Origin: a virus
Lineage: Duplodnaviria > Heunggongvirae > Uroviricota > Caudoviricetes
Strand: one strand, 5' to 3'
Length of the DNA stretch: 49,704 nucleotides
Virus record (IMG/VR): IMGVR_UViG_2703718837_000001
A program made the position numbers and the translations under genes. Under the pieces are notes generated by a model, which saw only the letters and a list, made by a program, of their open reading frames with translations, ran no database searches and had not been told where the DNA came from. Within the stretch, counting starts at the first letter, position 1; each line of letters starts with the position of its first letter. Positions 12,736 to 39,084 of this stretch are shown one piece after another.

Positions 12736-13437
12736 ATGATTGAACAGCAAAAGCAATGGGTGTTTACTGAATTAGTAAAAGACCCCAATAACATCGAGCA
12801 ACTAATTTCATACACGATTTACAAAGGTTTCAAAAATGAAATAGCCGATAATGCTCGTAAGATGGGCAAGACTGAAGATGAGATCAATGAGGAGTTAGCA
12901 AAATATCACAACTATTGCATTAGTTCTCAAAAGCAATTAGATGTTTTTAGAGATAAAGCTAAAAACACTCTTGACGCTTATATTTTCACCGCTAACCATA
13001 ACATGATGAAACGGTTTAATGCGGAAATTATTAAAATAAAAAACAACTATGATAAAGAACTTGAACTAGCGCAAAAAAAGTTAAAAATTGCCGAAAAAAA
13101 AGCATTAAATAAGCTGTCCAAAGGTGCGGTTCTCTACAGCCAAAAAATTAAAGAGCCAGAGCATCTCTGGGATAAAATCCTTGATTTATTGTGGAGACTT
13201 ATGAAGTTTCTGTTCTCTGGCGTACCTAAACTTTTTGCTACTGCATTTTCTGTTGGTCTAATGTTCACAATTTATACAGCTTTCGACGAAGATGCCACGA
13301 CAGGTTTGAGAAAAGGGCTATATAAAATTGTTGATATGACTGTACCAGGAAAAGATATTCACGAAACCACAGATAATATAACCAATAGTGGCACAGAAAA
13401 AATGTCATCTTCAAATTCCCAAGCGCAGCAAGGATAG
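12736..13437 (+). CDS. Hypothetical protein with coiled coil and C-terminal transmembrane helix, AT-rich accessory gene
   Basis: 233 aa; hydrophobic segment LFATAFSVGLMFTIYTAF; Lys-rich helical N-terminal part; no good RBS. Confidence 0.5.
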   Translation: MIEQQKQWVFTELVKDPNNIEQLISYTIYKGFKNEIADNARKMGKTEDEINEELAKYHNYCISSQKQLDVFRDKAKNTLDAYIFTANHNMMKRFNAEIIKIKNNYDKELELAQKKLKIAEKKALNKLSKGAVLYSQKIKEPEHLWDKILDLLWRLMKFLFSGVPKLFATAFSVGLMFTIYTAFDEDATTGLRKGLYKIVDMTVPGKDIHETTDNITNSGTEKMSSSNSQAQQG

Positions 13438-13443
13438 GTGATG

Positions 13444-13872
13444 TTATAAGCCGCGCAGTGATTTCGGCGCGGCAAACGTCTCAATCATCTTTTCCGCGAT
13501 TGCCGACCAGGTGTGACACTGGACCTTTTCAGCATTTTTCACGCGATCAACGCGAGCAATAACCTCATCCCAATCAATCCGCGACTTGATAACCATATGG
13601 TTCACCAAATCCAGGCGATCCGGCGGAAGGCAATCGGGCGGCGTTAATATCAACGCTCCACACATTGCCGCCTCAAGAACAGTTAATCCAAGGCTTTCGG
13701 GATGCGTAACGATAAAAACGTCACTCTTACGCAATTCAGCTGCAAATTCGGTTGCTGGTACCGGCGTCCGTCTGTATGGGGTTACCGATATATTCCCCGG
13801 ATCAATGGTAATCAATCCGTCATCGGTCAACGTTCTGGCCTCATACGGAACGGTCAGACTCTGAAGGTTCAT
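13444..13872 (-). pseudogene. Glycosyltransferase C-terminal-domain fragment (GT-B fold), 5'-truncated
   Basis: 142-aa ORF with ...HPESLGLTVLEAAMCGALILTPP... typical of GT4 C-terminal domains; no N-terminal domain upstream (frame runs into a tRNA-like fragment and then the next gene). Confidence 0.45.
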
Positions 13873-13998
13873 AAGGATACTTAAGGAGTGATCAAAACCA
13901 CTAACATCAAATGCAGCGTGGTCTACAAAAATACGCAGAACATCGTCTGTTTTGGTTTCATCGACGCATGTGCCATACGCCGTACAACTACCAAATAA

Positions 13999-14030
13999 GG
14001 TGTCCCCTACCGGGCTTGAACCGGTGGCTG
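13999..14030 (-). other. tRNA 3'-end-like fragment (T-arm plus acceptor 3' strand)
   Basis: Minus strand reads ACCGG-TTCAAGC-CCGGT-AGGGGAC-A-CC: perfect 5-bp T-stem, canonical 7-nt T-loop, 7-nt acceptor strand; no matching 5' half upstream. Confidence 0.35.
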
Positions 14031-14168
14031 TGCGATTATGATCCCTTTGAAAAATAAATGCAGATCTAATAGGTTGTGTTATTTACTCATTGGCACAGAT
14101 TGCCATTACTTATCTAGTTTTAGCCATTTTTACCGCACTTCATCGCTACTAGCCTATGTTTCTTTATG

Positions 14169-15104
14169 TTAGAATGGTACATTGTCATCCATCTCAAAGT
14201 CTGGGGGTGCAACAGATATTCGATGAATTTCATTTCTTTCCATATCCATCATTTGATCCTCCTGCTCCCCATCATCGTACCACGATGAAGTGTCTACCTC
14301 TAAAGCTTCAGATATGACTTCAAATGTTTCAGGAGAGTCTAAGTGAGAAGCCATGTGCAACGTGAACGGATAACTTTCTTCTAGGCTAACCCCATCATTC
14401 CTAGAACCATATTCTTGAGTAACATAGACAGTACCGGAAGCATATATATTGATGTACTCATCATCAATCGACGTGATTCCAAATTCTTCGACTTCAGTGT
14501 AATCTACATACGCATGATTCGCGATAGTCACTAGGTTTTCAGGCATAGAGCTTACCGCCGTGTCAATAACTGCATTTCTAATTTTATCTTCGAGAGTACG
14601 AATTAATTCATCTCTACAAATATGTATACCATTTAGTATTTCTGTAGCGATCTGCAGTATTTGTTTGGCCTTCAGGAAGAACTCTTGAGGTGATGGATGC
14701 ATATATTTCTCTGTTATATGCGTATATTTATTTAAGAAGAAATAAAGCTTAAGCATCTCATCTATTCTTTCATTCGACTCCTCCAGGAACTCTTCCCCCA
14801 AGTACGCATCTGAAATTTTAGCTTGAGAACAGTATTTTAAACGCTGTCTTCTAGATATTTCGTAATGTTCATGTTCTCTCTTATACCACGATGCTTGTAA
14901 TAATTTATCATTCGGAGATTTTTTCTCGATAATATGCTTTATTAGCTCGCGAATTGAAAATGCAAAGTTATGAAAACGTAATGGGTTGCCATGTGATGCA
15001 TAATTTCGCAAACAAGCTGTGAATAATTCTTTTTCAAAATCAGCTTCGAGGTGACTCATAAAATCATTCACAAAATCAAGAGATTGTAGTTTTTTAAGCT
15101 TCAT
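14169..15104 (-). CDS. Hypothetical protein with SSB-like acidic C-terminal tip (…PPDFEMDDNVPF)
   Basis: 311 aa; AT-rich; helical N-terminal part with no OB-fold signature; last residues resemble the E. coli SSB tail PPMDFDDDIPF. Confidence 0.6.
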   Translation of the reverse strand: MKLKKLQSLDFVNDFMSHLEADFEKELFTACLRNYASHGNPLRFHNFAFSIRELIKHIIEKKSPNDKLLQASWYKREHEHYEISRRQRLKYCSQAKISDAYLGEEFLEESNERIDEMLKLYFFLNKYTHITEKYMHPSPQEFFLKAKQILQIATEILNGIHICRDELIRTLEDKIRNAVIDTAVSSMPENLVTIANHAYVDYTEVEEFGITSIDDEYINIYASGTVYVTQEYGSRNDGVSLEESYPFTLHMASHLDSPETFEVISEALEVDTSSWYDDGEQEDQMMDMERNEIHRISVAPPDFEMDDNVPF

Positions 15105-15914
15105 CGTGTAACCTTATATTCCTGTCTCAGATTTAATATCGGATTCAACCGAATCCTCTTCTTCTAAATTTTAAAGTCGTGTAACATTACAAAATATTCA
15201 AGGTTAAATTGAACATATATCATTGTTATTTAGATGTAAGTATATCTGAGCACTCGTTACAATACCAGAATATTACCATCATTCATCATAAAGTAACTAG
15301 CGAAGGTGTGGCGGAAACGTAAGTAAGTTGTTCTCCAGGTAATTCAATACCTGTTCTTTCTAAATAGCTGCGCGGAATAGTGATCTACTTTCGTCCGCCC
15401 TTGCAGGGCGAGACATTAGGTCGGCGTCCCCTACCTGACCGTGCTGCATCAGGCTTGAGTGTGTTGCCCATATGCAACATACCACACATCAGTAAACGGC
15501 AAGTGTAGTAGTATTAGGCGCAGAAATTTAGTACAGCCCAGAATGCGCCGTAACAATCAATAAACCACTACACCCGCGCCCTGGCTGCAATTCGGTAACA
15601 GGGGATCCCCCCTAGCTTCCAGCGTGATTAGCGCCTTCAGCATGACGGAATATACCCGTAAATACGAGGAACTCTACCCAAAGGCTGTTAAGAACCGGCT
15701 GTTACGCTGAATGAAAAAGGACGTAACAGGTAAGGACGCTGACCAGAAGATGGCCCCTTCTCGTTCATCTGGTTAATCAAACCAGCGCCCTTGCCTGTTA
15801 TGCCTCCTCGTTCCCTAATACACAGACGGGGACAACCCCGTGGTGTCAGGCTTCTTAGGCCGCAACCATCATCAGATCATCGTTTGCATTTACTTTAATG
15901 GTCAGTTTGTGACT

Positions 15915-17235
15915 GCTCCCCGCCCTGTCGGGCGAGGCTTCCCACTTCTCAGGCCACTACCGTCTGTGCGACGGATTTACGCTGGCCTCCATGGGCGGAG
16001 ACGACGAGTCCCGCCGCCTGTAGTTCCAGTATTCCTTTTTGCCGGATGTTGAGTGCCGCATTGATATCGCGGTCGTGCTCTGCTCCACATTCAGGGCATC
16101 GCCAGATGCGTTTATGAAGCGGCATTTCCGGCATTTTGTAACCACAACAATAGCAGGCTTTCGAACTGGCAAACCACTGGTCGAGTTTTACTAGGTGAAC
16201 GCCTTTTTCCGCTGCCTTGTACTCCAGCTTTGTGATGAAGCTATGCCAGCCTGCATCACCTATCGCTCTTGCCAGATTGTGGTTTTTCATCATGTTGGCT
16301 GTTTTCAGCGTCTCGACAATTACCGCTTGGTTTTCGTCAACAATTGCACGAGAGAGCTTGTGTTGAAAATCAGCACGGGCATTAGCCACCCGTTCGTGTA
16401 ACGCTGCCAGACGGATTGTGGCCTTTTTACGATTCGCGCTTCCCTTTTGCTTGCGGGATAAGGCTTTTTGTTTGCGTCGCAGATTACGGCTGGCATTGAT
16501 GAGATGGCGGGGATTTGCAATTTTTACCCCATCAGACTTGATGGCAAAGTGCGATAATCCCATATCTAGGCCAGTAACTGTTGATATCAACGTGGGTTTT
16601 GCCGGAGCTTCCATGCCATCATCACAGAGAATTGAAGCATAGTATTTCCCCGTTGCTGAACAGGTGATAGTGATGCTTTTCAGCTTTCCATGAAGTTCAC
16701 GGTGAAGGCGTGCTTCTATTAGGGACAGTTTTGGGATTTTGATGGCATTATCCAGCACCTTAATCCCGACACAGTGATAGCTCGATTGTTTTCCGTGTTT
16801 ACGTTTAAACGTCGGGAACCGCGCTTTCAGCTTCGGATTAAAAAAGTTGGAAAATGCCACATCAAGATTAATTACCGCCTGTTGCAACGCAATAGAATCA
16901 TATTCTTTAAGCCATCCATACCTGCGGGATTTCTTTGCCACTGCAAGCAGCGGTTTCAGATCGTTACGCGGACTTAAATTTACTCCATGTCGCTGGTAAG
17001 CATGTTTTTTGATGTGAAGAGCTTTGTTGTACGCAAAGCGCACTGCACCGAACTGGGCATTGAGGTACTCTGCCTGTTCTGGTGTCGGGTAAATGCGTAC
17101 TTTTGTTGCTCTTAACATAGTCACCGCTCATTGATACAGGCTTTTTATGCTAACACCGTAATGATTTTTTTAAAGCCCTGTTGGCTTTTCGCCTTATATA
17201 CCCGCCCGCATTAGGCGAGGGTTTACGGCGTTTTT
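15915..17235 (-). mobile_element. IS200/IS605-family element carrying tnpB only (boundaries approximate)
   Basis: Intact tnpB flanked by similar GC hairpins of the CCGCCC-loop-GGGCGAG type at 15925-15940 and 17196-17216; no tnpA. Confidence 0.55.
15949..17124 (-). CDS. tnpB: TnpB (OrfB) RuvC-like RNA-guided endonuclease homologue
   Basis: 391 aa; N-terminal MLRATKVRIYPTPEQAEYLNAQFGAVRFAYNKAL; RuvC-I D in TGLDMGL, RuvC-II E in IVETLK, zinc finger CYCCG...CPECG, RuvC-III D in HDRDINAALNI. Confidence 0.9.
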   Translation of the reverse strand: MTMLRATKVRIYPTPEQAEYLNAQFGAVRFAYNKALHIKKHAYQRHGVNLSPRNDLKPLLAVAKKSRRYGWLKEYDSIALQQAVINLDVAFSNFFNPKLKARFPTFKRKHGKQSSYHCVGIKVLDNAIKIPKLSLIEARLHRELHGKLKSITITCSATGKYYASILCDDGMEAPAKPTLISTVTGLDMGLSHFAIKSDGVKIANPRHLINASRNLRRKQKALSRKQKGSANRKKATIRLAALHERVANARADFQHKLSRAIVDENQAVIVETLKTANMMKNHNLARAIGDAGWHSFITKLEYKAAEKGVHLVKLDQWFASSKACYCCGYKMPEMPLHKRIWRCPECGAEHDRDINAALNIRQKGILELQAAGLVVSAHGGQRKSVAQTVVA

Positions 17236-17470
17236 CGCTAAACCGCCGCAAAGTCGCTAACCATGACGAAACCTCTGAAAAAAATGCCCACCCGAAGATG
17301 GGCAAACTGGATGGAAGCTCGTTACGCACTTCGGAGTTGCCTCTTAGGCGCATGGTCAACCTGGCAACTCGGTGGTTTGTCTGGGAGGACTAGGCCCAGC
17401 CATGCTTACCGCCGCGCCTGTCGCGGCTAACAGCTAAATCGCTCTAAAAATCACGATTCATTGATTCGAT

Positions 17471-17487
17471 ATTACACTAATAAATTT
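17471..17487 (+). promoter_or_regulatory. P1 C1-repressor operator-like site
   Basis: ATTACACTAATAAATTT (15/17 to consensus), between the IS left end and the 3' end of the methyltransferase gene. Confidence 0.4.
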
Positions 17488-17488
17488 A

Positions 17489-20400
17489 TTATAGCAATAT
17501 TGCTATAACGTCATGAGCAACACCACGAGTGTCTCCCTTACAAGACACAGAACGTCTGGCAAAAAGAGGTTCCACTCTGAAGCCACTGTCCTGATAAAGT
17601 TCTCTGATGTTTGGCGCGCCACTGTTAGTAATGAGAACCTTTGCACCTCGGCGATGAGCATCCGTCAACAGAGACACCAGGCGTTTTTGCTCTTCAAACT
17701 TAAAGTCATGACCGGAATAGTTCGTGAACCCCTCTGTATTGGGGAGCGGTTCATACGGCGGATCGCAAAAGATGACATCTCCTTCTCCGGCAGCTTCAAT
17801 CACCGCTGCAAAATCACCGCATACAAACTCAGACCGCCCTTCCGCACCGAGGAAGGCTTCCATCTCCTGTAATGGAAAATGCGTAGACTTATACTTCCCA
17901 TACCCGACATTGAACTCACCGGCCTGGTTGTAGCGCGTCAATCCATTAAAACAATGTCGGTTCAGGAACAAAAACGCCGCTGCGCGATGTAAATCATCAT
18001 AGACTTGTTTGTTAAACGCATTCCGTACTGCCAGGAATCCCTCCTGGGTGTTGTAGTCCAGGAAGAAACGATGTGCCAGAGTGATAAGTGAATGCGCCTC
18101 GCGTTGCAGAGTCTTGTAAAAGTTAATCAGGTCAGCATTCACATCATTTAGCAGATTTTCCTGATATCCGGCATTCATGAAGACAGCTCCGCCACCAACG
18201 AAAGGTTCAATCAGGCGCTTCCCTTCTGGCAAATAGCGAAAGATTTGTTCCAGAACACCAAATTTTCCACCAGCCCATTTGAATATGGGCCGTTCGAATT
18301 CTGCCGCTGGTTTAACCTTTCGCTCTTTTGTTTCACTCCCTTCTTTTTGCCGACATGCAGCCTTAGTAATCCGATCGCCAATCCAGCGCATTACTGGTAT
18401 TGCCATACTATTTCCGATCGCTTTGTAACGCGGTCCGTCAGCTGCAAGCATCGCGGCCTCTTCTTCGTTTAAATCAGGATAGTTATTGCGAAGGTATGCT
18501 AGTTCATCTGAAGAAACTTTTTTACGCTTTCCCGTAGGGATCAACGTATGCCAATCAGGAAAACCTTGCAGCCTTTCACATTCGACAGGGGTAAGACGGC
18601 GCATTCTATCGTCGCCGAGCAATACAATTGGTGCTTCATGGTTACATGTCAAAGTTGGTGCCGAATTATCGGTTTTTATCTCAGCCCCTCCTTGCCCATG
18701 TGCCATGGCAATTATGTTTGTATCATCGCAAGATCTGATAGCGATGTTTGAAGTATATCTGGTAGTTTCCTTCCCCTCGCCTCTGCTCGGCGCAATATCC
18801 CGGCGCTCGCCTTCGAACTCAAAAAGTACCGTTGCGGGATCGAGGTCTGTTCGAGCACTTGCGACAACAAACACGCGTCGGCGTCGTTGTGCCACTCCGA
18901 AGTATTGGGCATCAAGGATTCTCCAGGCCACCTTTCGCTGCGGTCCATAAATACAACCACACTGCGGCCACTTTGGAGCATGGCAACCGGTTTTGCCATC
19001 CCACCGCCAGAACGCGTTACTTTTTCCTGATTCAGGTCGATCACCTGGTTCAAATGGCGCATCTTCTCCAGCCAATCCGGCAAGGAAACATCCGAAGGCG
19101 TTATCTGCCGATGACAAGACCCCTGGGACATTTTCCCAGACGATAACGGCTGGTTTGAGAAATGACTCAGCCCGTTTGTCGTCAATTGCATTTGCAAGCT
19201 CCACATACTTTAAAGTTAGCGCGCCACGCTCATCATCAAGCCCACCACGTAATCCAGCGATACTGAATGCCTGACAGTTATGGACCACCGCACCATTGAG
19301 GATATAGGAATGATCACCTTCGACTTCTATGTTGTATACAGTATCTAGGCCTACCGATTTAAACTCTTTGACTGTTCGTAAAAGCATTCCATGAGCCAAT
19401 CTTGATTTACGTGACAATTTCTGCGGGCAGATTGTTACCTGATAATAATTCCGTTGATTTACCACGCGATCCTCAATCACTTTTTTGGGCTCAACTTCAA
19501 TAAAGCTGACCGAAGAAACATAACCACAAGTCTGTGACAACTCCGCAACGCCCCAAGCAAGCGCAGGACTAACACTATTAATTCTAAATCCCGCTTTACC
19601 ACTTGGTGTCCCATCAGTATCAAGATAGCCTTGTAAAAACACATGACGCAATGGATGCGACATCACCCATGCAGGGATACGCTTAGCATGGCTTAACTCG
19701 CCAAAATGTTCATTAAGCCAATTGGCATAACACGTATCATTCAAGGTTACTTTGATGCTCCCTCGGATTTCGCTTGCCACGGAAAATATGTTTTCTGGTA
19801 TGCGGCAATGAAACTTTCTCAATTTCTGGCAATTTATGCCAAAAACAACCGCCTTCTTAGATTTACCTCTCCATCTCCTAATATATCCATCGCCAACATA
19901 AGCGCCCGCAAGATACATAGCCTGTTCTTCAGACAAGAACCGAGAACAAATATCTGGAGATGCAATATTGAAATTAGTTAGAGCACACCATTGATATCCC
20001 GGCATATCACATGCTGCTCGCCATTCCGGTTCAGACAACAACTCTCTCTTAAAATATGTGCCATTTTTCCGGGTGTTTTGGGCTTTCCACCGAACCGCCA
20101 GGAAGGGATGGTCATTGGTTGTTCTTATACCTAAAGGCTGCCCAACGGCATTAAGTAACCCCGTATTAGCTATTTTTGAACCAACTCTTTTTACTTGTTG
20201 TAACCGCCCGAGATGACTGACTACGTAATCGCCAGGGCAAACATCTTCTATTGGTTTATAACCATTTTTACAAAGAACCATATGCCCCGCGGTAAAACAT
20301 GGTGTCCCTCCCACCAGCACATCAGGGGCTTCAATTTCTCCGGCCTGGACTTTTTGGGCGAGTTTTGTCATGTCGCCAAGGTTCGCGACATGGGGCCAGC

Positions 20401-20530
20401 GGTGCGCAAGAACGGCAGAGGGAAAAGGCTCGATTTCAGCAAACCACGCCGGACGCATACCCAACGGTTCCCATGCAATGCTCGCGGCTTCAATTCCACT
20501 GCAAACAGATCCATAGCACAGCTCTCTCAC
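17489..20530 (-). CDS. dmt: Bifunctional DNA methyltransferase: N-terminal C5-cytosine MTase (intein-interrupted) fused to C-terminal Dam-type N6-adenine MTase
   Basis: 1013 aa. C5 motifs: CSGIEAAS (I), GGTP/CQAFS (IV, split by intein), VWENVPG (VI), QRRRRVF (VIII). C-terminal about 270 aa match Dam: [21 protein letters not shown]. Confidence 0.9.
19277..20299 (-). other. Intein (Hint domain with LAGLIDADG homing-endonuclease core) inside the methyltransferase gene
   Basis: 341 codons from Cys78 ([28 protein letters not shown]) to ...ILNGAVVHN, followed by Cys(+1) of CQAFS; block B TTNDHPF; [11 protein letters not shown] and [10 protein letters not shown] motifs. Confidence 0.85.
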
Positions 20531-21432
20531 TGCTTAGCCTCTCCGCCCAGGGCATTTACCAGAGCATCAACCAGGCACGAAATTTCACTGGTTAACAGGA
20601 AGAAATCTGCGTCCAGTCGCTGCGCAACATCTTCACTATCAATATCAGAGTTCTGCTCAAGCAATTCATCCGCAAATTTGACGCTGGTAAGGCTGAAGTT
20701 ATGGTCCAGTGTAAATTTAATGCGGTTCTGCCAGTCGAGTGCCAACTTTGTGACGAGCTTGCCAGCTTCCAGGTGTGTGGAAATTTCATCGCTTCCCAAA
20801 TCCTGCTTTTTCACTCGGGCGATACCGCCATCCTCAAGCACTGCCTTAAGTTCTGCCGCATCCCCCATTTGAAATCCCTGTGGAGCACTACCATCACGTA
20901 CCCAGTCGGTCAGCGTTAATTCAATGGGATTTTCAACACTCAGGGGAACAACAGGAAGAGAACCCAGAGATTTACGCATAAGCGCGAGCATATCCTCTGC
21001 CTGCCGCGCGCTGGCATTGATATAGATACGTTTAGTTGAACCGTCGTAGATCGCCTGGATAACAGAAAACTTTGAAAAAGCCCGTGGCAGAAGAGAATGC
21101 AGAACTTCGTCTTTCAGGGAGTCCTTCTCTATTTTCTTCAGTTTACGCGCTTGTTCTTGCTCAAGTTTTTCAATTTTTTCTTGAATAGCTCGCTGGATAA
21201 CCGGCGGGGGAAGAATTTTTGTTTCGCGCTTTGCTTCAACAAGGATAAAGCCATTTCCATGCATAGCGATCACTTCGGAATTATCACCAAATGGCGATAC
21301 AAAACCGAACTTGGCCATATCCTGGCTACCGCATGGCGTGAATAGGATCATTTTATTTTTATCTTCTAAGTCGGTCAGATCCGCCTCACGAGAAACTTTA
21401 TAAATAGAAATGTTTTTCCAGTGCTTAAACAT
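20527..21432 (-). CDS. rdgC: RdgC-family recombination-associated protein homologue
   Basis: Colinear with E. coli RdgC ([62 protein letters not shown]...ALGGEAKQ); start placed at the second Met by alignment. Confidence 0.85.
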
Positions 21433-21709
21433 GTTGTAACCCTTGAATATCAACCACAGAAAGCTCGTCTTTGTAGAAGAAGGTCAGGTTATGGCACCCC
21501 CTCGTTTGAGCGTATGAGCTGGGACCAATTTCGTTCTTCCAGACAAATGGCTTCAGATCCGTACGGCGAAGCATAAAAACGCAATTTGTTCCGCTCTGAT
21601 TCCCAATGAGGCAAAAGCCTTCTTTCACCTTGATAGCCTGCAAGTTGTCGAGTTCACCGCTGGTTACACGGCTATCGAACTCCTTGCGGCTTATTAGCTC
21701 CATCTGCAT
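21425..21709 (-). CDS. Small hypothetical protein, first gene of the methyltransferase operon
   Basis: Start chosen at the ATG preceded by GGAG (7-nt spacer); the longer track ORF would begin inside the operator site. Confidence 0.45.
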
Positions 21710-21780
21710 CTGACGACTCCAAACAAATGCCCATTGAAGGGCGATGGCTGAATGGTACCGAAAACACGATATAAAAAACA

Positions 21781-21797
21781 ATATTTATTAGAGCAAT
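21781..21797 (-). promoter_or_regulatory. P1 C1-repressor operator-like site heading the minus-strand methyltransferase operon
   Basis: Reverse complement ATTGCTCTAATAAATAT (16/17 to consensus). Confidence 0.6.
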
Positions 21798-21878
21798 TTT
21801 GTGATAAGTAAACGCCATACAGACCACAAATAACCTAAGTTAAAATAACGAAAATCAGAGCAAATCATTGGTGATGAC

Positions 21879-22163
21879 GTGGCAAGTATTGCAACAAAAG
21901 ACAGCATTTGTTCGGGGCACGGAGGATTCCCATCCAGGCCTCCTGTAGAGAGTGAACCACTACTTAAAGTCAACGGAGTCGAAGTGTTAGTTGATGGTAA
22001 GCAATATGCACAGCATACCGATGGAAACAGTACGCACGGTGGGCAAGCTATATCAACCAGGGCATGGTTTACCGTCAATGGTAAAGGGGTCGTATGCGTT
22101 GGTGACCCTGTTTCATGCGGCTCTACCGTAGCGTCAGGAGACGGCCTAGTTCAGGTAAGTTAG
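21879..22163 (+). CDS. PAAR-like spike-tip protein
   Basis: 94 aa, GTG start; two HGG motifs plus GDPVSCGSTVASGDG, resembling PAAR repeats; weak RBS. Confidence 0.45.
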   Translation: MASIATKDSICSGHGGFPSRPPVESEPLLKVNGVEVLVDGKQYAQHTDGNSTHGGQAISTRAWFTVNGKGVVCVGDPVSCGSTVASGDGLVQVS

Positions 22164-22171
22164 GAGATATC

Positions 22172-22960
22172 ATGCTGGAAAAAGACTACCAGTTATCCGC
22201 ATATAAAAAATTGGCCGCAGCCGGTGGGATGAAAACACCTGGTGCCATAACATCGGCACGAAACAGTGCTAACACGGCAAAACAGCTTGCAGAAGAATTG
22301 ATCGGATTAATTCTGGATACAATTGTCTATCCCGACACTATTACCAGCTATGTTTCAACGATCAGAACAACCACAACCGGCTTAACGAACATTGGAGAAC
22401 TGGCAACTAAGCACGCGGACCTGTTGGCTGGTTATGCAGATCTGTCAATGCTGCTTCAACTCGATATTGGTTGGGATGTTTACTGCCGTGCTAATGAGCG
22501 AGAAGTTTCAGAACTGCCGATCTCTATTGCCATTGGTGATGTGAATATTACTAAATCGCTTGAGGACGCTGTTAACGCGCTTAATACATCAAGTTTAGTC
22601 GCTGCTATGGGTGAGATTAACCAGACCCTTAACACTGGCTCAGGAAGCTCGTCAGGCTCTGGTTCAGGCGGCGGCACTGCCATTCCCCCACCAGCACTAA
22701 CAGAAGAGCAAATTGAATCTCTGAAAGTAGCAACTGAACAGTTTGGGGTTGTTTTCAACCAGACAACAGCGCCCACAACTGCGTTACAACAGCAGTATGA
22801 ACGAGCGAATGAAAGCGCCAACGTAGCCATAACTGCTTATAACCATGCTATCGGTACCGCGCTTGCGGAAGCATCAGCAAATAAGGCCAGCACAGCCAGC
22901 GCAGTTGCCGCTTTGGTTCCTTATTCTGTTCTTGATGAATTAAACAAAGCGGCACAGTAA
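22172..22960 (+). CDS. Hypothetical protein with Gly/Ser-rich linker
   Basis: ATG at 22172 preceded by AGGAG; 262 aa; central GSGSSSGSGSGGG linker. Confidence 0.55.
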   Translation: MLEKDYQLSAYKKLAAAGGMKTPGAITSARNSANTAKQLAEELIGLILDTIVYPDTITSYVSTIRTTTTGLTNIGELATKHADLLAGYADLSMLLQLDIGWDVYCRANEREVSELPISIAIGDVNITKSLEDAVNALNTSSLVAAMGEINQTLNTGSGSSSGSGSGGGTAIPPPALTEEQIESLKVATEQFGVVFNQTTAPTTALQQQYERANESANVAITAYNHAIGTALAEASANKASTASAVAALVPYSVLDELNKAAQ

Positions 22961-22999
22961 CAAAGGACTTCATTGATAATTTTTCTTCAGGAGGAAGAC

Positions 23000-23422
23000 A
23001 TGTCATTCTTTTCTACGTTAAAAACAGCTTTGTCTTTGAAGGAGAAACTTGCTGCTACTGGTGTTCTTGTTCTGATTTGCGCACTTGTTGGTGCTGGGTT
23101 TGCATGGGAACGTCATCAGCTAAAGCAAGCCATGGAGAAAATTGGCAGTCTTGATCAGGCTGTTAAGGAACGTGATAAGTCAATAATGGATCTTAACCAG
23201 GCCATTGAGACGATGAACAAAGCAGAGCAACATTTTCACAGCCAGGAAGTGAAAAATGAATCAGAACAAGCCAAGTATGCTGACAGGCAAATGGAACGAA
23301 AAGCTGAAGTTCAGAAACAACTGGTTGCGGCGGGTAATGTTCGCCAGCGTATTCCTGCTGACACTCAGCGGTTGCTCCGGGAGTCGATCAGCGAATTTAA
23401 CGCCGACGCCGACAAAGGTTAA
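23000..23422 (+). CDS. Rz-like i-spanin candidate (N-terminal TM helix plus coiled coil)
   Basis: ATG at 23000 preceded by AGGAGGAAG; TM segment LAATGVLVLICALVGAGFAW then charged helical region; a lipoprotein gene overlaps its 3' end in the +1 frame. Confidence 0.55.
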   Translation: MSFFSTLKTALSLKEKLAATGVLVLICALVGAGFAWERHQLKQAMEKIGSLDQAVKERDKSIMDLNQAIETMNKAEQHFHSQEVKNESEQAKYADRQMERKAEVQKQLVAAGNVRQRIPADTQRLLRESISEFNADADKG

Positions 23423-23588
23423 CCACCCTGCCCCCAAAAGTGCATTTATGTGCAGGATGCCAGAATTTAGCAGTGAATATTTTGATGATCTGCCAGCCTA
23501 TATCCTTGATACAGAAACGATGCTGATGGGGATTAACAGGAAGAATCGCAACGTTAATGATTACAACCGCGCTATCAGCGGTAACTAA
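23337..23588 (+). CDS. Rz1-like o-spanin candidate (small Pro-rich lipoprotein)
   Basis: MFASVFLLTLSGC lipobox; Pro-rich mature part with one further Cys; starts inside the i-spanin-like gene and extends beyond it. Confidence 0.5.
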   Translation: MFASVFLLTLSGCSGSRSANLTPTPTKVNHPAPKSAFMCRMPEFSSEYFDDLPAYILDTETMLMGINRKNRNVNDYNRAISGN

Positions 23589-23599
23589 AAGGGATTTTT

Positions 23600-23992
23600 A
23601 TGTCTGATAAAGTAACAGTAAAGCAAACTATCAACAAAGCGACTTCAATCTACAAAATTGAGCAAATCACTGTTGGCAAGCTAGGATCTGAACAATACCG
23701 TCATGCTTTCGAGCTTGCCGATCAGCTTGGTTTAAAACACCCGGATTGCATCGAGCATGTATTTCCTACCTATGCTGATGAGCAATGTACTCATGTTCTT
23801 ACCGAAGAGGATTTTTTCAGCACTGAAGAACGAGAAGGCGTTGATCGCTGCATTGGTGTGATTTGTTCTTCGGTAAGTGATGAGTTATTCCCTAATGTGC
23901 CTGAATATGGTGGTATTGGATACCAATTCCTGTACGAGGGCGATGAGCTTAAATGTTATGAACATGGTCTTCTTATCGAAAGCGTAGAATAA
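23600..23992 (+). CDS. Hypothetical protein
   Basis: 130-aa ORF with RBS-like GGGATTTTT upstream; no motif recognised. Confidence 0.5.
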   Translation: MSDKVTVKQTINKATSIYKIEQITVGKLGSEQYRHAFELADQLGLKHPDCIEHVFPTYADEQCTHVLTEEDFFSTEEREGVDRCIGVICSSVSDELFPNVPEYGGIGYQFLYEGDELKCYEHGLLIESVE

Positions 23993-24039
23993 TACGGTTT
24001 CTTTCCAACCGGCTATGTTGGCCGGTTTTTCACTTATCC

Positions 24040-24290
24040 ACATTATCCACTGGGTAGATCCAATAATTAGGTCCATACAGATCCCAATTAGATCCATATA
24101 GATCCCTGATCGTTGCAGGCCGCGCCACGTCTGGCTTAGAAGTGTATCGCGATGTGTGCTGGAGGGAAAACGATGTGTGCTGGAGGGATAAAAATGTGTG
24201 CTGACGGGTTGCTAATGTGTGCTGGCGGGATATAGGATGTGTGCTGACGGGAAAGCCTGGGTAGTTATCATCACTTATAAAAGCTATCCA
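24040..24290 (+). promoter_or_regulatory. Plasmid replication origin (P1 oriR type): DnaA boxes, five GATC sites, five iterons
   Basis: Tandem TTATCCACA/TTATCCACT at 24044-24061; GATC at 24067, 24090, 24101, 24111, 24118; five direct repeats of ATGTGTGCTGGAGGG-type iterons at 24151-24257; another TATCCACA at 24274-24282. Confidence 0.8.
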
Positions 24291-24310
24291 CATAATTCGG
24301 AAAAAGTAAT

Positions 24311-25171
24311 ATGAATCAATCTTTTATCTCCGATATTCTTTACGCAGACATTGAAAGTAAGGCAAAAGAACTAACAGTTAATTCAAACAACACTGTGCAG
24401 CCTGTAGCGTTGATGCGCTTGGGGGTATTCGTGCCGAAGCCATCAAAAAGCAAAGGAGAAAGTAAAGAGATTGATGCCACCAAAGCGTTTTCTCAGTTGG
24501 AGATAGCTAAAGCCGAAGGTTACGATGACATTAAAATCACCGGTCCTCGACTCGATATGGATACTGATTTCAAAACGTGGATCGGTGTCATCTACGCGTT
24601 CAGCAAATACGGCTTGTCTTCAAACACCATCCAGTTATCGTTTCAGGAGTTCGCTAAAGCCTGTGGTTTCCCCTCAAAACGTCTGGATGCGAAACTGCGT
24701 TTAACCATTCATGAATCACTTGGACGCTTGCGTAACAAGGGTATCGCTTTTAAGCGCGGAAAAGATGCTAAAGGCGGCTATCAGACTGGTCTGCTTAAGG
24801 TCGGGCGTTTTGATGCTGACCTTGATCTGATAGAGCTGGAGGCTGATTCGAAGCTGTGGGAGCTGTTCCAGCTTGATTATCGCGTTCTGTTGCAACACCA
24901 CGCCTTGCGTGCCCTTCCGAAGAAAGAAGCTGCACAAGCCATTTACACTTTCATCGAAAGCCTTCCGCAGAACCCGTTGCCGCTATCGTTCGCGCGAATC
25001 CGTGAGCGCCTGGCTTTGCAGTCAGCTGTTGGCGAGCAAAACCGTATCATTAAGAAAGCGATAGAACAGCTTAAAACAATCGGCTATCTCGACTGTTCAA
25101 TTGAGAAGAAAGGCCGGGAAAGTTTTGTAATCGTCCATTCTCGCAATCCAAAGCTGAAACTTCCCGAATAA
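24311..25171 (+). CDS. repA: Plasmid replication initiator RepA (P1 type)
   Basis: 286-aa ORF placed exactly between an iteron origin and a second iteron array, the diagnostic P1 oriR-repA-incA layout. Confidence 0.85.
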   Translation: MNQSFISDILYADIESKAKELTVNSNNTVQPVALMRLGVFVPKPSKSKGESKEIDATKAFSQLEIAKAEGYDDIKITGPRLDMDTDFKTWIGVIYAFSKYGLSSNTIQLSFQEFAKACGFPSKRLDAKLRLTIHESLGRLRNKGIAFKRGKDAKGGYQTGLLKVGRFDADLDLIELEADSKLWELFQLDYRVLLQHHALRALPKKEAAQAIYTFIESLPQNPLPLSFARIRERLALQSAVGEQNRIIKKAIEQLKTIGYLDCSIEKKGRESFVIVHSRNPKLKLPE

Positions 25172-36951: not shown

Positions 36952-36968
36952 AAAATTATTAGAGCAAA
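36952..36968 (-). promoter_or_regulatory. P1 C1-repressor operator-like site upstream of kilA-repL
   Basis: Reverse complement TTTGCTCTAATAATTTT (15/17 to consensus). Confidence 0.55.
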
Positions 36969-37521
36969 TTTTTCTGACTCGATCCAGATCGGGTTGGTCG
37001 ATCTGCTCAGAAACCTGCCAGTTCGCTGGCAGGTTTTTTTGTATAAGGCGTTTTTCAATGTGGATTTGTGGCTGGCTAAAACGAAAAAGGCCACAGGTTT
37101 TACCCTGTGGCCTGTTCGGGCGCAACGCGCTGCTGTTACACTGCGAACTAACGCCCTTCAATATTGTTATGCAATGTGGAGAAGTGAGGCAATCACTGAT
37201 GCCAACACAGAACTTGAAGCTCCGATGATGACAGGAACAATGATGTTGGTCACAATCCACTTGCAAGCTTTTTGAAGAGTCATTACGAAGCTCCGCATAC
37301 TTGCAACAGCAACTGCTTGCGGCTATCCTCTTGTTGTTCAGACATAAGGAATGCCCTCGCTGGTTGCCTCCATGCAACGTTGTGGCGAGGGTTTTTTCTG
37401 TCTGGAGGCTACGCATCCAGGAGTTCATAACCCCCGCATAACGTTGCGCCTCCCCTGAAAAACAGGGTTGGGCATATCGTACACATGCCTGTAATTTATG
37501 GCAAATCCTGGTCTGAATACG

Positions 37522-39067: not shown

Positions 39068-39084
39068 AAATTTATTAGAGCAGG
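39068..39084 (-). promoter_or_regulatory. P1 C1-repressor operator-like site heading the immI-like operon
   Basis: Reverse complement CCTGCTCTAATAAATTT (15/17 to consensus). Confidence 0.55.

What the first reader, a model, noticed from the sequence alone, without database searches (positions are those of the whole stretch)
17489..20530. Single polypeptide fusing a C5-cytosine and a Dam-type adenine methyltransferase under an operator-headed operon
The N-terminal two-thirds (minus the intein) carry C5-MTase motifs I, IV, VI, VIII; the C-terminal about 270 aa carry Dam motifs (KWAGGK, DPPY). The same element's origin holds five GATC sites, so the phage-plasmid may methylate its own origin independently of the host, as well as broadly protecting against restriction.
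Basis: partly seen in the sequence, partly recalled or inferred. Interest (0 to 1): 0.45.

Follow-up and report, generated by a model that had tools for sequence, protein, structure and literature searches.

The report
Phage P1 Dmt methylase, intein-bearing allele

Summary
Window 17489..20530 (-) is one 1013-aa ORF with a C5-cytosine methyltransferase, a 341-aa intein and a C-terminal Dam-type methyltransferase. It is the last gene of an operon headed by a C1-repressor operator, and the plasmid origin has five GATC sites.

It is not new. It is the uhr-hrdC-dmt operon of phage P1/P7, 98% identical to Dmt of a deposited P1 isolate. Dmt has been annotated as bifunctional since the P1 genome record. 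About 9% of complete E. coli genomes carry this dmt, and a third of those carry the intein.

The intein sits exactly at the catalytic Cys of motif IV (GGTP|C...HN|CQAFS). Removing it gives a 672-aa protein that aligns without gaps to P7 Dam.

The origin-methylation idea is not supported. The promoter and operator are identical or near-identical to P1's Pdmt/Op68, and published RT-qPCR shows dmt is a C1-controlled lytic gene. It should therefore be off while oriR is in use. Its documented role is GATC methylation of the pac packaging site.

The cytosine activity and its target remain untested. The intein shows a recent gene-conversion signature, but C5-methylase inteins are already reported in actinophages.

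The parts
21781..21797 (-). C1 repressor operator Odmt (former Op68), ATTGCTCTAATAAATAT
   Evidence: One mismatch to the C1 operator consensus. Identical to the P1 operator annotated in AF234172.
21752..21781 (-). Sigma-70 promoter Pdmt (-35 TTGTTT at 21776-21781, -10 TACCAT at 21752-21757), abutting the operator
   Evidence: Position transferred from the AF234172 annotation. Both hexamers are identical to P1.
21425..21709 (-). uhr, first gene of the operon (94 aa, function unknown)
   Evidence: 98% identical to P1 Uhr. No Pfam hit.
20527..21432 (-). hrdC, an RdgC-family protein (301 aa). Its stop overlaps the dmt start as GTGA.
   Evidence: PF04381 RdgC, E = 4e-97. 98% identical to P1 HrdC.
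17489..20530 (-). dmt precursor ORF, 1013 aa
   Evidence: 98% identical to Dmt of P1 isolate OP279344.1.
20300..20530 (-). N-extein, aa 1-77: C5-methyltransferase motifs I-III and the GGTP of motif IV
   Evidence: Alignment A1. Alignment to M.HhaI.
19277..20299 (-). Class 1 intein with a LAGLIDADG homing-endonuclease domain, aa 78-418 (CFTAGH...AVVHN). It is followed by Cys419, the catalytic Cys of motif IV.
   Evidence: Exact indel relative to P1 reference Dmt and P7 Dam. Hits to Hint_2, LAGLIDADG_3 and TIGR01443. Matches the Spl DnaX mini-intein C-terminus and PI-PkoII. Has Cys1, TNDH (block B), the two LAGLIDADG motifs LAGAYVGDG and LQGYLDTDG, terminal HN and +1 Cys.
18365..19276 (-). C-extein part of the C5 methyltransferase, aa 419-722: motifs IV (CQAFS) to X
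18602..18814 (-). Variable target-recognition region between motifs VIII and IX, 'short' allele. P1 reference and RCS47 carry a different allele 82 aa longer.
   Evidence: Alignment A1. The short allele is present at 80% coverage or more in 184 PLSDB plasmids.
18296..18364 (-). Lys/Glu-rich linker between the two methyltransferase modules, aa 723-745
   Evidence: Lies between the Pfam/TIGRFAM domain boundaries. That it acts as a linker is inferred.
17492..18295 (-). Dam-type (D12 class) N6-adenine methyltransferase domain, aa 746-1013 (FKWAGGK, DPPY)
   Evidence: PF02086 and TIGR00571 above their cut-offs. About 96% nucleotide identity to P1 dmt in this part.
17471..17498 (.). Bivalent C1 operator (P1 Op72ab / Oban) with Pban, overlapping the dmt stop codon
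   Evidence: Two overlapping operator matches on opposite strands. Annotated at the same position in P1 and P7.
24057..24111 (.). Five GATC sites of the plasmid origin oriR, followed by five RepA iterons and repA (24311..25171). This is context cited by the finding, not part of the dmt operon.
   Evidence: Spacing identical to the annotated P1 oriR Dam sites.

Best explanation
This is the dmt gene of a P1/P7-type phage-plasmid (Punavirus), the last gene of the uhr-hrdC-dmt operon.

In the lysogenic plasmid state, C1 repressor bound at Odmt (Op68) next to the -35 box keeps the operon off. On infection or induction it is transcribed as an early lytic operon.

The primary product is a 1013-aa precursor.
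- Its C-terminal Dam module is a separate domain. It should methylate GATC, and its established biological target is the GATC-rich pac site, which must be methylated for pacase cleavage and headful packaging. This makes the phage independent of host Dam during rapid lytic replication or in Dam- hosts.
- The N-terminal C5-cytosine module is split at its catalytic Pro-Cys dipeptide by a 341-aa class 1 intein. Only after protein splicing, which uses that same Cys as the +1 nucleophile, is motif IV (GGTPCQAFS) restored. The result is a 672-aa enzyme collinear with P7 Dam.
- The spliced C5 module probably methylates a short cytosine motif set by its variable region. That would protect progeny DNA from some restriction enzymes.
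- The intein itself is a selfish homing element that spreads among dmt alleles through its LAGLIDADG endonuclease.

Shown here: identity, synteny, operator and promoter conservation, domain content, exact intein boundaries, prevalence and the conversion-tract signature.

From the literature: C1 control, lytic expression and pac methylation.

Inferred: splicing competence, Dam activity of the unspliced precursor, C5 activity and an anti-restriction role.
For: Identity and synteny:
- The region matches P1-family phages at 96-98% nucleotide identity, with dmt, hrdC and uhr annotated under the match.
- AF234172 annotates Dmt as a 'bifunctional DNA methyltransferase; methylates DNA at N6 adenine in GATC sequences and perhaps at C5 cytosine' and annotates Odmt (Op68) and Pdmt.
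- The operator and both promoter hexamers are identical in the window.

Domains and intein:
- All domains are confirmed.
- The intein boundaries are exact, and the predicted spliced product (672 aa) aligns gaplessly to P7 Dam (672 aa) with 18 mismatches.

Literature:
- dmt is grouped with the C1-controlled lytic genes by RT-qPCR (PMC4713147).
- pac methylation by host Dam or phage Dmt is needed for progeny production.
- dmt is non-essential in a Dam+ host by CRISPRi (PMC10695390).

Prevalence:
- The Dam part is found in 480 of 5426 complete E. coli genomes and the intein in 152.
- In PLSDB the counts are 471 and 133 plasmids.

Intein mobility:
- Every intein copy in complete E. coli genomes, and 129 of 133 in PLSDB plasmids, is at least 99% identical. 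The Dam part is mostly 95-99% identical.
- Between the window and OP279344, the N-extein differs at 22 of 231 nt. The next roughly 1500 nt (intein plus C-flank) differ at 0-2 per 150 nt.
- All four combinations of intein presence/absence with short/long variable region occur among phage records. Three were aligned directly; the additional records assigned to each combination are inferred from coverage.
Against: - No experiment shows splicing, C5-cytosine methylation or its target for any Dmt. I found no paper reporting any of these.
- Repression in this particular element is inferred from sequence identity to P1, not measured.
- A P7-annotated predicted late promoter (LPdam2) lies inside the gene, so part of the gene's expression may not depend on C1.
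- P1vir is reported as sensitive to all RM systems tested in BASEL. Any anti-restriction benefit is therefore narrow.
Confidence: 0.85

Rival explanations
1. One reading: the element uses its own Dam domain to keep the five GATC sites of oriR methylated. Plasmid replication would then be independent of host Dam.
For: The five GATC sites are real and identical in spacing to the functional Dam sites of P1 oriR. The Dam domain is intact. Leaky expression, or the predicted internal late promoter LPdam2, could give some enzyme.
Against: The operon is headed by the C1 operator Op68, identical to P1. dmt behaves as a C1-controlled lytic gene (PMC4713147), whereas oriR works in the repressed state. 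Lytic replication uses the kilA-repL replicon (own knowledge; its promoter region matches P1's kilA region). Reviews assign Dmt to pac methylation. P1 oriR plasmids were reported to need methylated DNA supplied by host Dam (title cited; details from my own knowledge).
Confidence: 0.07
2. The gene works only as a Dam. The C5 half is a dispensable or inactive passenger, and that is why a parasitic intein at its catalytic Cys is tolerated.
For: The P1 and P7 records say only 'perhaps' for C5 activity. No m5C activity was found in the literature. The reference P1 carries Trp instead of Gly in motif IV (VWGTPC). Some records annotate the two halves as separate genes or as incomplete. dmt is non-essential.
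Against: Motifs I, IV, VI, VIII, IX and X, the ones checked, are intact, and the 1013-aa frame is open. The same intein-bearing gene is annotated as a single CDS in nearly all listed records. The intein retains every canonical splicing residue. The variable region exists as distinct alleles, as expected for enzymes under selection for specificity. More than 8000 stand-alone homologs of this C5 family exist in prophages.
Confidence: 0.2
3. The intein is a regulatory switch. Splicing is conditional (for example on redox state, through Cys78 and Cys419, or on timing), so Dam acts at once and cytosine methylation is delayed or gated.
For: The insertion is exactly at the catalytic nucleophile. The unspliced protein therefore cannot be an active C5 enzyme, while the Dam module is untouched. 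Homologous inteins at the same site in other Proteobacteria and in Actinobacteria show that the site is used repeatedly.
Against: Insertion at conserved catalytic residues is the general habit of selfish inteins. About two thirds of dmt alleles lack the intein, and intein-less P1 and P7 are fully viable. The conversion-tract pattern points to selfish spread. No data on splicing kinetics exist.
Confidence: 0.1

Closest known systems
Dmt (Dam) of phage P1 and P7, uhr-hrdC-dmt operon under operator Op68/Odmt
   Same: Same gene, same synteny, and the same operator and promoter. Uhr and HrdC are 98% identical to P1's. The Dam part is about 96% identical at the nucleotide level. The spliced product is 97% identical to P7 Dam and collinear with it. 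The whole precursor is 98% identical to Dmt of P1 isolate OP279344.1.
   Different: Compared with the P1 reference (754 aa), this allele has the 341-aa intein and a variable region 82 aa shorter. Compared with P7, only the intein is extra. The downstream tRNA genes are replaced by TnpB and other cargo.
Dam family (D12 class) GATC adenine methyltransferases (E. coli Dam, T4 Dam)
   Same: PF02086 and TIGR00571 score above their cut-offs, and the FxGxG-type and DPPY motifs are present.
   Different: It is fused behind a C5 methyltransferase. It scores below the E. coli Dam equivalog cut-off (235.7 against 441 bits). It is about 50% identical to chromosomal enterobacterial Dams.
Type II C5-cytosine methyltransferases (M.HhaI, M.HaeIII) and prophage orphan C5 methyltransferases
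   Same: Conserved motifs I, IV, VI, VIII, IX and X are present. The best solved-structure matches are M.HhaI and M.HaeIII. There are thousands of prophage homologs.
   Different: Motif IV is interrupted by an intein. There is an extra insertion of about 35 aa between motifs VI and VIII. The target sequence is unknown. No cognate restriction enzyme was seen in the neighbouring genes scanned.
Inteins in phage DNA methylases (mycobacteriophage DNMT-1/2 inteins; actinophage N6/N4 and C-5 methylase inteins)
   Same: A class 1 intein with a LAGLIDADG endonuclease in a phage DNA-modification gene, with patchy distribution and signs of horizontal transfer (PMC5050341, PMC9957025, bioRxiv 10.1101/2025.01.02.630785).
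   Different: The host here is an enterobacterial phage-plasmid and the extein is a two-enzyme fusion. I found no paper describing the intein in P1-type dmt. Related inteins at the same site are only 47-52% identical (Pasteurellaceae and metagenomes) or about 30% identical (Actinobacteria).

Membership tests
P1/P7 Dmt (Punavirus bifunctional DNA methyltransferase) | Last gene of the uhr-hrdC-dmt operon, between the upfC/upfB side and Pban/Op72 | tested here: met
   Gene order and 98% identity of Uhr and HrdC. An Op72-like bivalent operator overlaps the stop codon.
P1/P7 Dmt (Punavirus bifunctional DNA methyltransferase) | C1-controlled operator Op68/Odmt with Pdmt upstream of uhr | tested here: met
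   The operator and both hexamers are identical to P1. Repression itself was not measured here and is taken from PMC4713147.
P1/P7 Dmt (Punavirus bifunctional DNA methyltransferase) | N-terminal C5-methyltransferase module fused to a C-terminal Dam module, with high identity to the P1/P7 protein | tested here: met
   The spliced product matches P7 Dam at 654 of 672 residues without gaps.
Dam family N6-adenine methyltransferase (GATC) | Profile match above the curated cut-off, with SAM-binding and DPPY catalytic motifs | tested here: met
   PF02086 188.5 bits (cut-off 22) and TIGR00571 247.2 bits (cut-off 114.85). [10 protein letters not shown] and DPPY are present.
Dam family N6-adenine methyltransferase (GATC) | Methylates adenine in GATC | not testable with these tools
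   Inferred from about 96% nucleotide identity to the P1 gene, whose GATC activity is stated in the record and in reviews.
C5-cytosine DNA methyltransferase | Conserved motifs, including the catalytic Pro-Cys of motif IV and ENV of motif VI | tested here: met
   Motifs I, IV, VI, VIII, IX and X are present. Motif IV is contiguous only after the intein is removed. PF00145 scores 106.5 bits. TIGR00675 scores 95.8 bits, just under its cut-off of 100.65, on the unspliced sequence.
C5-cytosine DNA methyltransferase | Forms 5-methylcytosine at a defined target | not testable with these tools
   No published activity was found. Matches to solved structures are confined to the conserved motifs, so no target can be inferred.
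Class 1 intein with LAGLIDADG homing endonuclease | Cys/Ser at position 1, block B TxxH, C-terminal His-Asn, and a nucleophile at +1 | tested here: met
   Cys78, T-N-D-H, H417-N418 and Cys419. TIGR01443 scores 28.8 bits (cut-off 15.6) and Hint_2 scores 28.5 bits (cut-off 28.4).
Class 1 intein with LAGLIDADG homing endonuclease | In-frame insertion absent from otherwise collinear homologs, at a conserved site | tested here: met
   An exact 341-aa indel against P1 reference Dmt and P7 Dam. Homologous inteins lie at the same motif IV site in other C5 methyltransferases.
Class 1 intein with LAGLIDADG homing endonuclease | Two LAGLIDADG motifs with their acidic residues | tested here: met
   LAGAYVGDG and [11 protein letters not shown]14528 scores 32.6 bits (cut-off 22.5). 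Alignment to PI-PkoII.
Class 1 intein with LAGLIDADG homing endonuclease | Protein splicing and homing actually occur | not testable with these tools
   Only indirect support: all 153 intein copies in complete E. coli genomes are at least 99% identical, there is a conversion tract, and all four intein/variable-region combinations exist.

The most novel reading that the evidence does not exclude
The intein, sitting on the catalytic cysteine of the C5 module, is an actively homing element now sweeping through P1-type phage-plasmids. It also acts as a post-translational gate: the precursor is a Dam-only enzyme, and cytosine methylation begins only after splicing, possibly dependent on redox state or timing. 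The two methylation activities of one polypeptide would then be uncoupled during lytic growth.
Probability: 0.1. Interest if true: 0.5.

Novelty: already known. Interest (0 to 1): 0.18.

Why it matters
As stated, the finding rediscovers P1 Dmt, a gene known for decades as P1 dam and annotated as bifunctional in the 2004 genome record. It has little news value.

The follow-up does correct a tempting but wrong inference. Origin GATC sites together with a self-encoded Dam do not imply self-sufficiency, because the enzyme is repressed in the plasmid state.

It also flags three small open points in a classic model phage:
- The C5 activity and its target have apparently never been shown.
- The variable region exists as at least two alleles.
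- About a third of natural dmt genes carry a near-identical intein at the catalytic Cys, apparently unremarked in the P1 literature. This gives a convenient E. coli system for studying intein homing between co-resident phage-plasmids.

Tried and rejected
Papers not held. Three primary papers could not be read: the P1 genome paper (PMC523184) and the two oriR methylation papers (PMC553761, PMC206955). Statements about them rest on GenBank annotation, on citing reviews, or on my own knowledge, and are marked as such.

Literature searches.
- Searches for an intein in P1 dmt, or for Dmt C5 activity, found nothing relevant.
- One search failed on a term that was too short.
- The O111:H- STEC methylome paper does not discuss the P1-plasmid methyltransferase.

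Target of the C5 module. Comparison with solved structures matched only the conserved motifs of M.HhaI and M.HaeIII, so no specificity can be inferred. Source names of homologs carry no specificity either.

Regulatory RNAs near dmt. Rfam found nothing at gathering threshold in 12000-25000, and ARAGORN found no tRNA in the window.

Ideas considered and rejected.
- That the fusion might be an ORF-calling artefact or read-through of two genes. The same single ORF is annotated in P1, P7, RCS47 and hundreds of plasmids.
- That GATC is globally enriched or avoided in the element. It is not (198 observed, 191 expected).

Not run. Structure prediction was not run. Domain calls and the exact indel already settle the architecture, and the spliced sequence is not a contiguous window sequence.
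Full report
**1. What is there**

Window 17489..20530 on the minus strand is a single open reading frame of 1013 codons. Its GTG start overlaps the stop of the preceding gene as GTGA.

Pfam finds four things in it:
- a C5-cytosine methylase (PF00145) in three stretches;
- a D12-class N6-adenine methylase (PF02086) at residues 752-985;
- a Hint domain at residues 77-126;
- a LAGLIDADG domain at residues 298-361.

NCBIfam adds the 'dam' subfamily model well above its cut-off and the intein C-terminal splicing model.

**2. Identity**

The region matches phage P1-family genomes at 96-98% nucleotide identity, and dmt, hrdC and uhr are annotated under the match.

The reference P1 record (AF234172) calls Dmt a 'bifunctional DNA methyltransferase; methylates DNA at N6 adenine in GATC sequences and perhaps at C5 cytosine'. 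The P7 record says the same of its Dam.

The two upstream genes are 98% identical to P1 Uhr and to HrdC, an RdgC-family protein.

It lies at 21781..21797 (-), reads ATTGCTCTAATAAATAT, and is identical to the P1 site. It abuts a promoter whose -35 and -10 hexamers are also identical to P1 Pdmt.

A second, bivalent operator (Op72ab, Pban) overlaps the dmt stop codon, as in P1 and P7.

The five origin GATC sites (24057-24111) have exactly the spacing of the five annotated Dam sites of P1 oriR. Five iterons and repA follow them.

The whole picture is the textbook P1 arrangement.

**3. The intein**

Aligning the window protein with three phage Dmt proteins shows a clean 341-residue insertion (residues 78-418, nt 19277..20299). 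It is absent from reference P1. It is present in P1 isolate OP279344.1 (1013 aa, 98% identical overall) and in RCS47.

The insertion starts with Cys (CFTAGH...). It has the block B T-x-x-H (TNDH) and two LAGLIDADG motifs with their Asp residues. It ends in His-Asn and is followed by Cys419.

That Cys is the catalytic cysteine of C5 motif IV. The motif reads GGTP|intein|CQAFS.

Removing the insertion gives a 672-residue protein. It aligns without a single gap to the 672-residue Dam of phage P7, with 18 mismatches. That is strong evidence for the predicted splice product.

The unspliced precursor cannot have an intact C5 active site. The Dam module, behind a Lys/Glu-rich linker, is untouched. 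Whether the precursor is already an active Dam is an inference.

**4. How common it is**

| Collection | Carry the Dam part of this dmt | Carry the intein DNA |
|---|---|---|
| Complete E. coli genomes (5426) | 480, almost always on plasmids | 152 |
| PLSDB plasmids | 471 | 133 |

The PLSDB carriers are Escherichia, Salmonella, Shigella and a few Klebsiella.

PGAP names the gene simply 'Dam family site-specific DNA-(adenine-N6)-methyltransferase'.

C5-Dam fusions also occur outside the P1 clade. Relatives of the Dam module at about 70% and about 50% identity include proteins with both Pfam domains. The C5 module belongs to a family with thousands of stand-alone prophage members.

The architecture is therefore ordinary for enterobacterial temperate phages.

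**5. Signs that the intein moves**

- All 153 intein copies in complete E. coli genomes, and 129 of 133 in PLSDB plasmids, are at least 99% identical. The Dam part is mostly 95-99% identical.
- Between the window and OP279344, the N-extein differs at 22 of 231 nt. The next roughly 1500 nt (intein plus C-terminal flank) differ at only 0-2 positions per 150 nt. The rest of the gene differs at 1-8 per 150 nt, mostly 3-8.
- The two intein-less alleles examined share synonymous codons around the site (GGTACGCCT|TGTCAG...GCGGGC) that differ from those of all three intein-bearing alleles.
- The variable region between motifs VIII and IX exists as a short allele (window, OP279344, P7) and an 82-aa longer allele (reference P1, RCS47). 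All four combinations with intein presence or absence occur.

Together these fit homing with co-conversion. They are not proof of it.

Related inteins occupy the same motif IV site in other C5 methyltransferases:
- 47-52% identical ones in Mannheimia haemolytica, a Rodentibacter remnant and metagenomic proteins;
- about 30% identical ones in actinobacterial proteins, at SPE|C...N|CTNHS.

**6.

Published RT-qPCR places dmt with ssb and kilA among the C1-repressor-controlled genes that are induced on lytic induction (PMC4713147). A transcriptome preprint also treats hrdC and dmt as induced lytic functions.

Reviews state that P1 needs Dam methylation of pac for packaging, which makes dmt essential only in Dam- hosts (PMC12707154; PMC11437467). 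A CRISPRi screen scores dmt as non-essential in a normal host.

oriR works in the repressed prophage-plasmid state, and the operator here is intact. The enzyme should therefore not be available to methylate oriR. The classical result that P1 plasmid replication needs methylated DNA refers to host Dam (title cited; experimental details from my own knowledge, because the paper was not held).

I therefore rate the origin-autonomy idea as unlikely, at about 0.07.

Anti-restriction by the C5 module is plausible but untested. P1vir was found sensitive to all restriction systems tried in the BASEL study, so any protection is narrow rather than broad.

**7. Novelty**

The fusion, the operon, the operator and the origin GATC sites are all previously described features of P1. 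The intein-bearing allele is already deposited many times, including in a phage labelled P1.

Inteins in phage DNA methylases are a known kind. They are reported in mycobacteriophage N6/N4 methylases, in an actinophage methylase family, and in C-5 methylases listed in a recent actinophage survey.

I found no paper noting the intein in P1-type dmt. That is a modest gap in annotation and description, not a new kind of system.

My verdict is 'already known', with low interest.

The residual open questions are whether the C5 half is active and on what motif, whether the two variable-region alleles differ in target, and whether the intein is merely selfish or also gates C5 activity.

Noticed in passing
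window 18602..18814 (-); L002 and L003 dmt: The variable (target-recognition) region of the C5 module exists as at least two unrelated alleles: short in the window, OP279344 and P7, and 82 aa longer in reference P1 and RCS47. All four combinations with intein presence or absence occur. A metagenomic homolog (P0014) carries modules resembling both alleles in tandem, like the multispecific phage methyltransferases.
   Followed up: partly
window 14169..17124 (-): Directly downstream of dmt and Pban/Op72, where P1 has tRNA genes, the window carries other cargo in the same orientation as Pban. It comprises a TnpB-only IS605-type gene (15949..17124) and an ORF with both 'pPIWI-associating nuclease' domains (14169..15104). 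No Argonaute gene was seen among the ORFs scanned nearby. This cargo may be read from the C1-controlled Pban promoter. The same 5-kb block is 99% identical in 18 plasmids, including one from Klebsiella pneumoniae.
   Followed up: partly
whole window: ARAGORN finds no tRNA gene, whereas P1 and RCS47 have tRNA-Asn and tRNA-Thr just downstream of dmt. Rfam finds nothing at gathering threshold in 12000-25000, although homology to P1's dicF-like region begins near 17238.
   Followed up: no
window 18501..18519 (-): A sequence identical to the predicted late promoter LPdam2 annotated inside P7 dam lies within the C5 part, upstream of the Dam module. If real, it could give C1-independent late transcription of the 3' part of the gene.
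   Followed up: no
L002 (AF234172) dmt, residue 74: The reference P1 Dmt has Trp where the four other alleles examined have Gly, just before the catalytic Pro-Cys (VWGTPC against VGGTPC). The classic lab strain's C5 module may be atypical or impaired.
   Followed up: no
window 36952..37003: Three GATC sites within 23 bp (36981, 36987, 37000) lie immediately upstream of a C1 operator-like site (36952..36968). They sit at the promoter of the kilA-repL lytic replicon. Homology to P1 ends at about 37040.
   Followed up: partly
P0011 (Mannheimia haemolytica) and P0024 (Rodentibacter): A 47%-identical intein at the same motif IV site occurs in a Mannheimia haemolytica protein seen on 578 contigs. 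That protein's C-extein is truncated right after CQS. A Rodentibacter C5 methyltransferase starts with only the last roughly 50 residues of such an intein. Both look like decaying copies.
   Followed up: no
P0033: A partial C5 + Dam protein from E. coli is named 'multidrug DMT transporter permease' in NCBI/nr. This is apparently an annotation error caused by the gene symbol dmt.
   Followed up: no
window 3757..3822, 7430..7446, 39068..39084: Further C1 operator-like sites occur, for a total of 8 in the window against 0.39 expected. They include a facing pair at 3757..3822 just upstream of a 420-aa minus-strand ORF with no Pfam hit (2260..3522).
   Followed up: no
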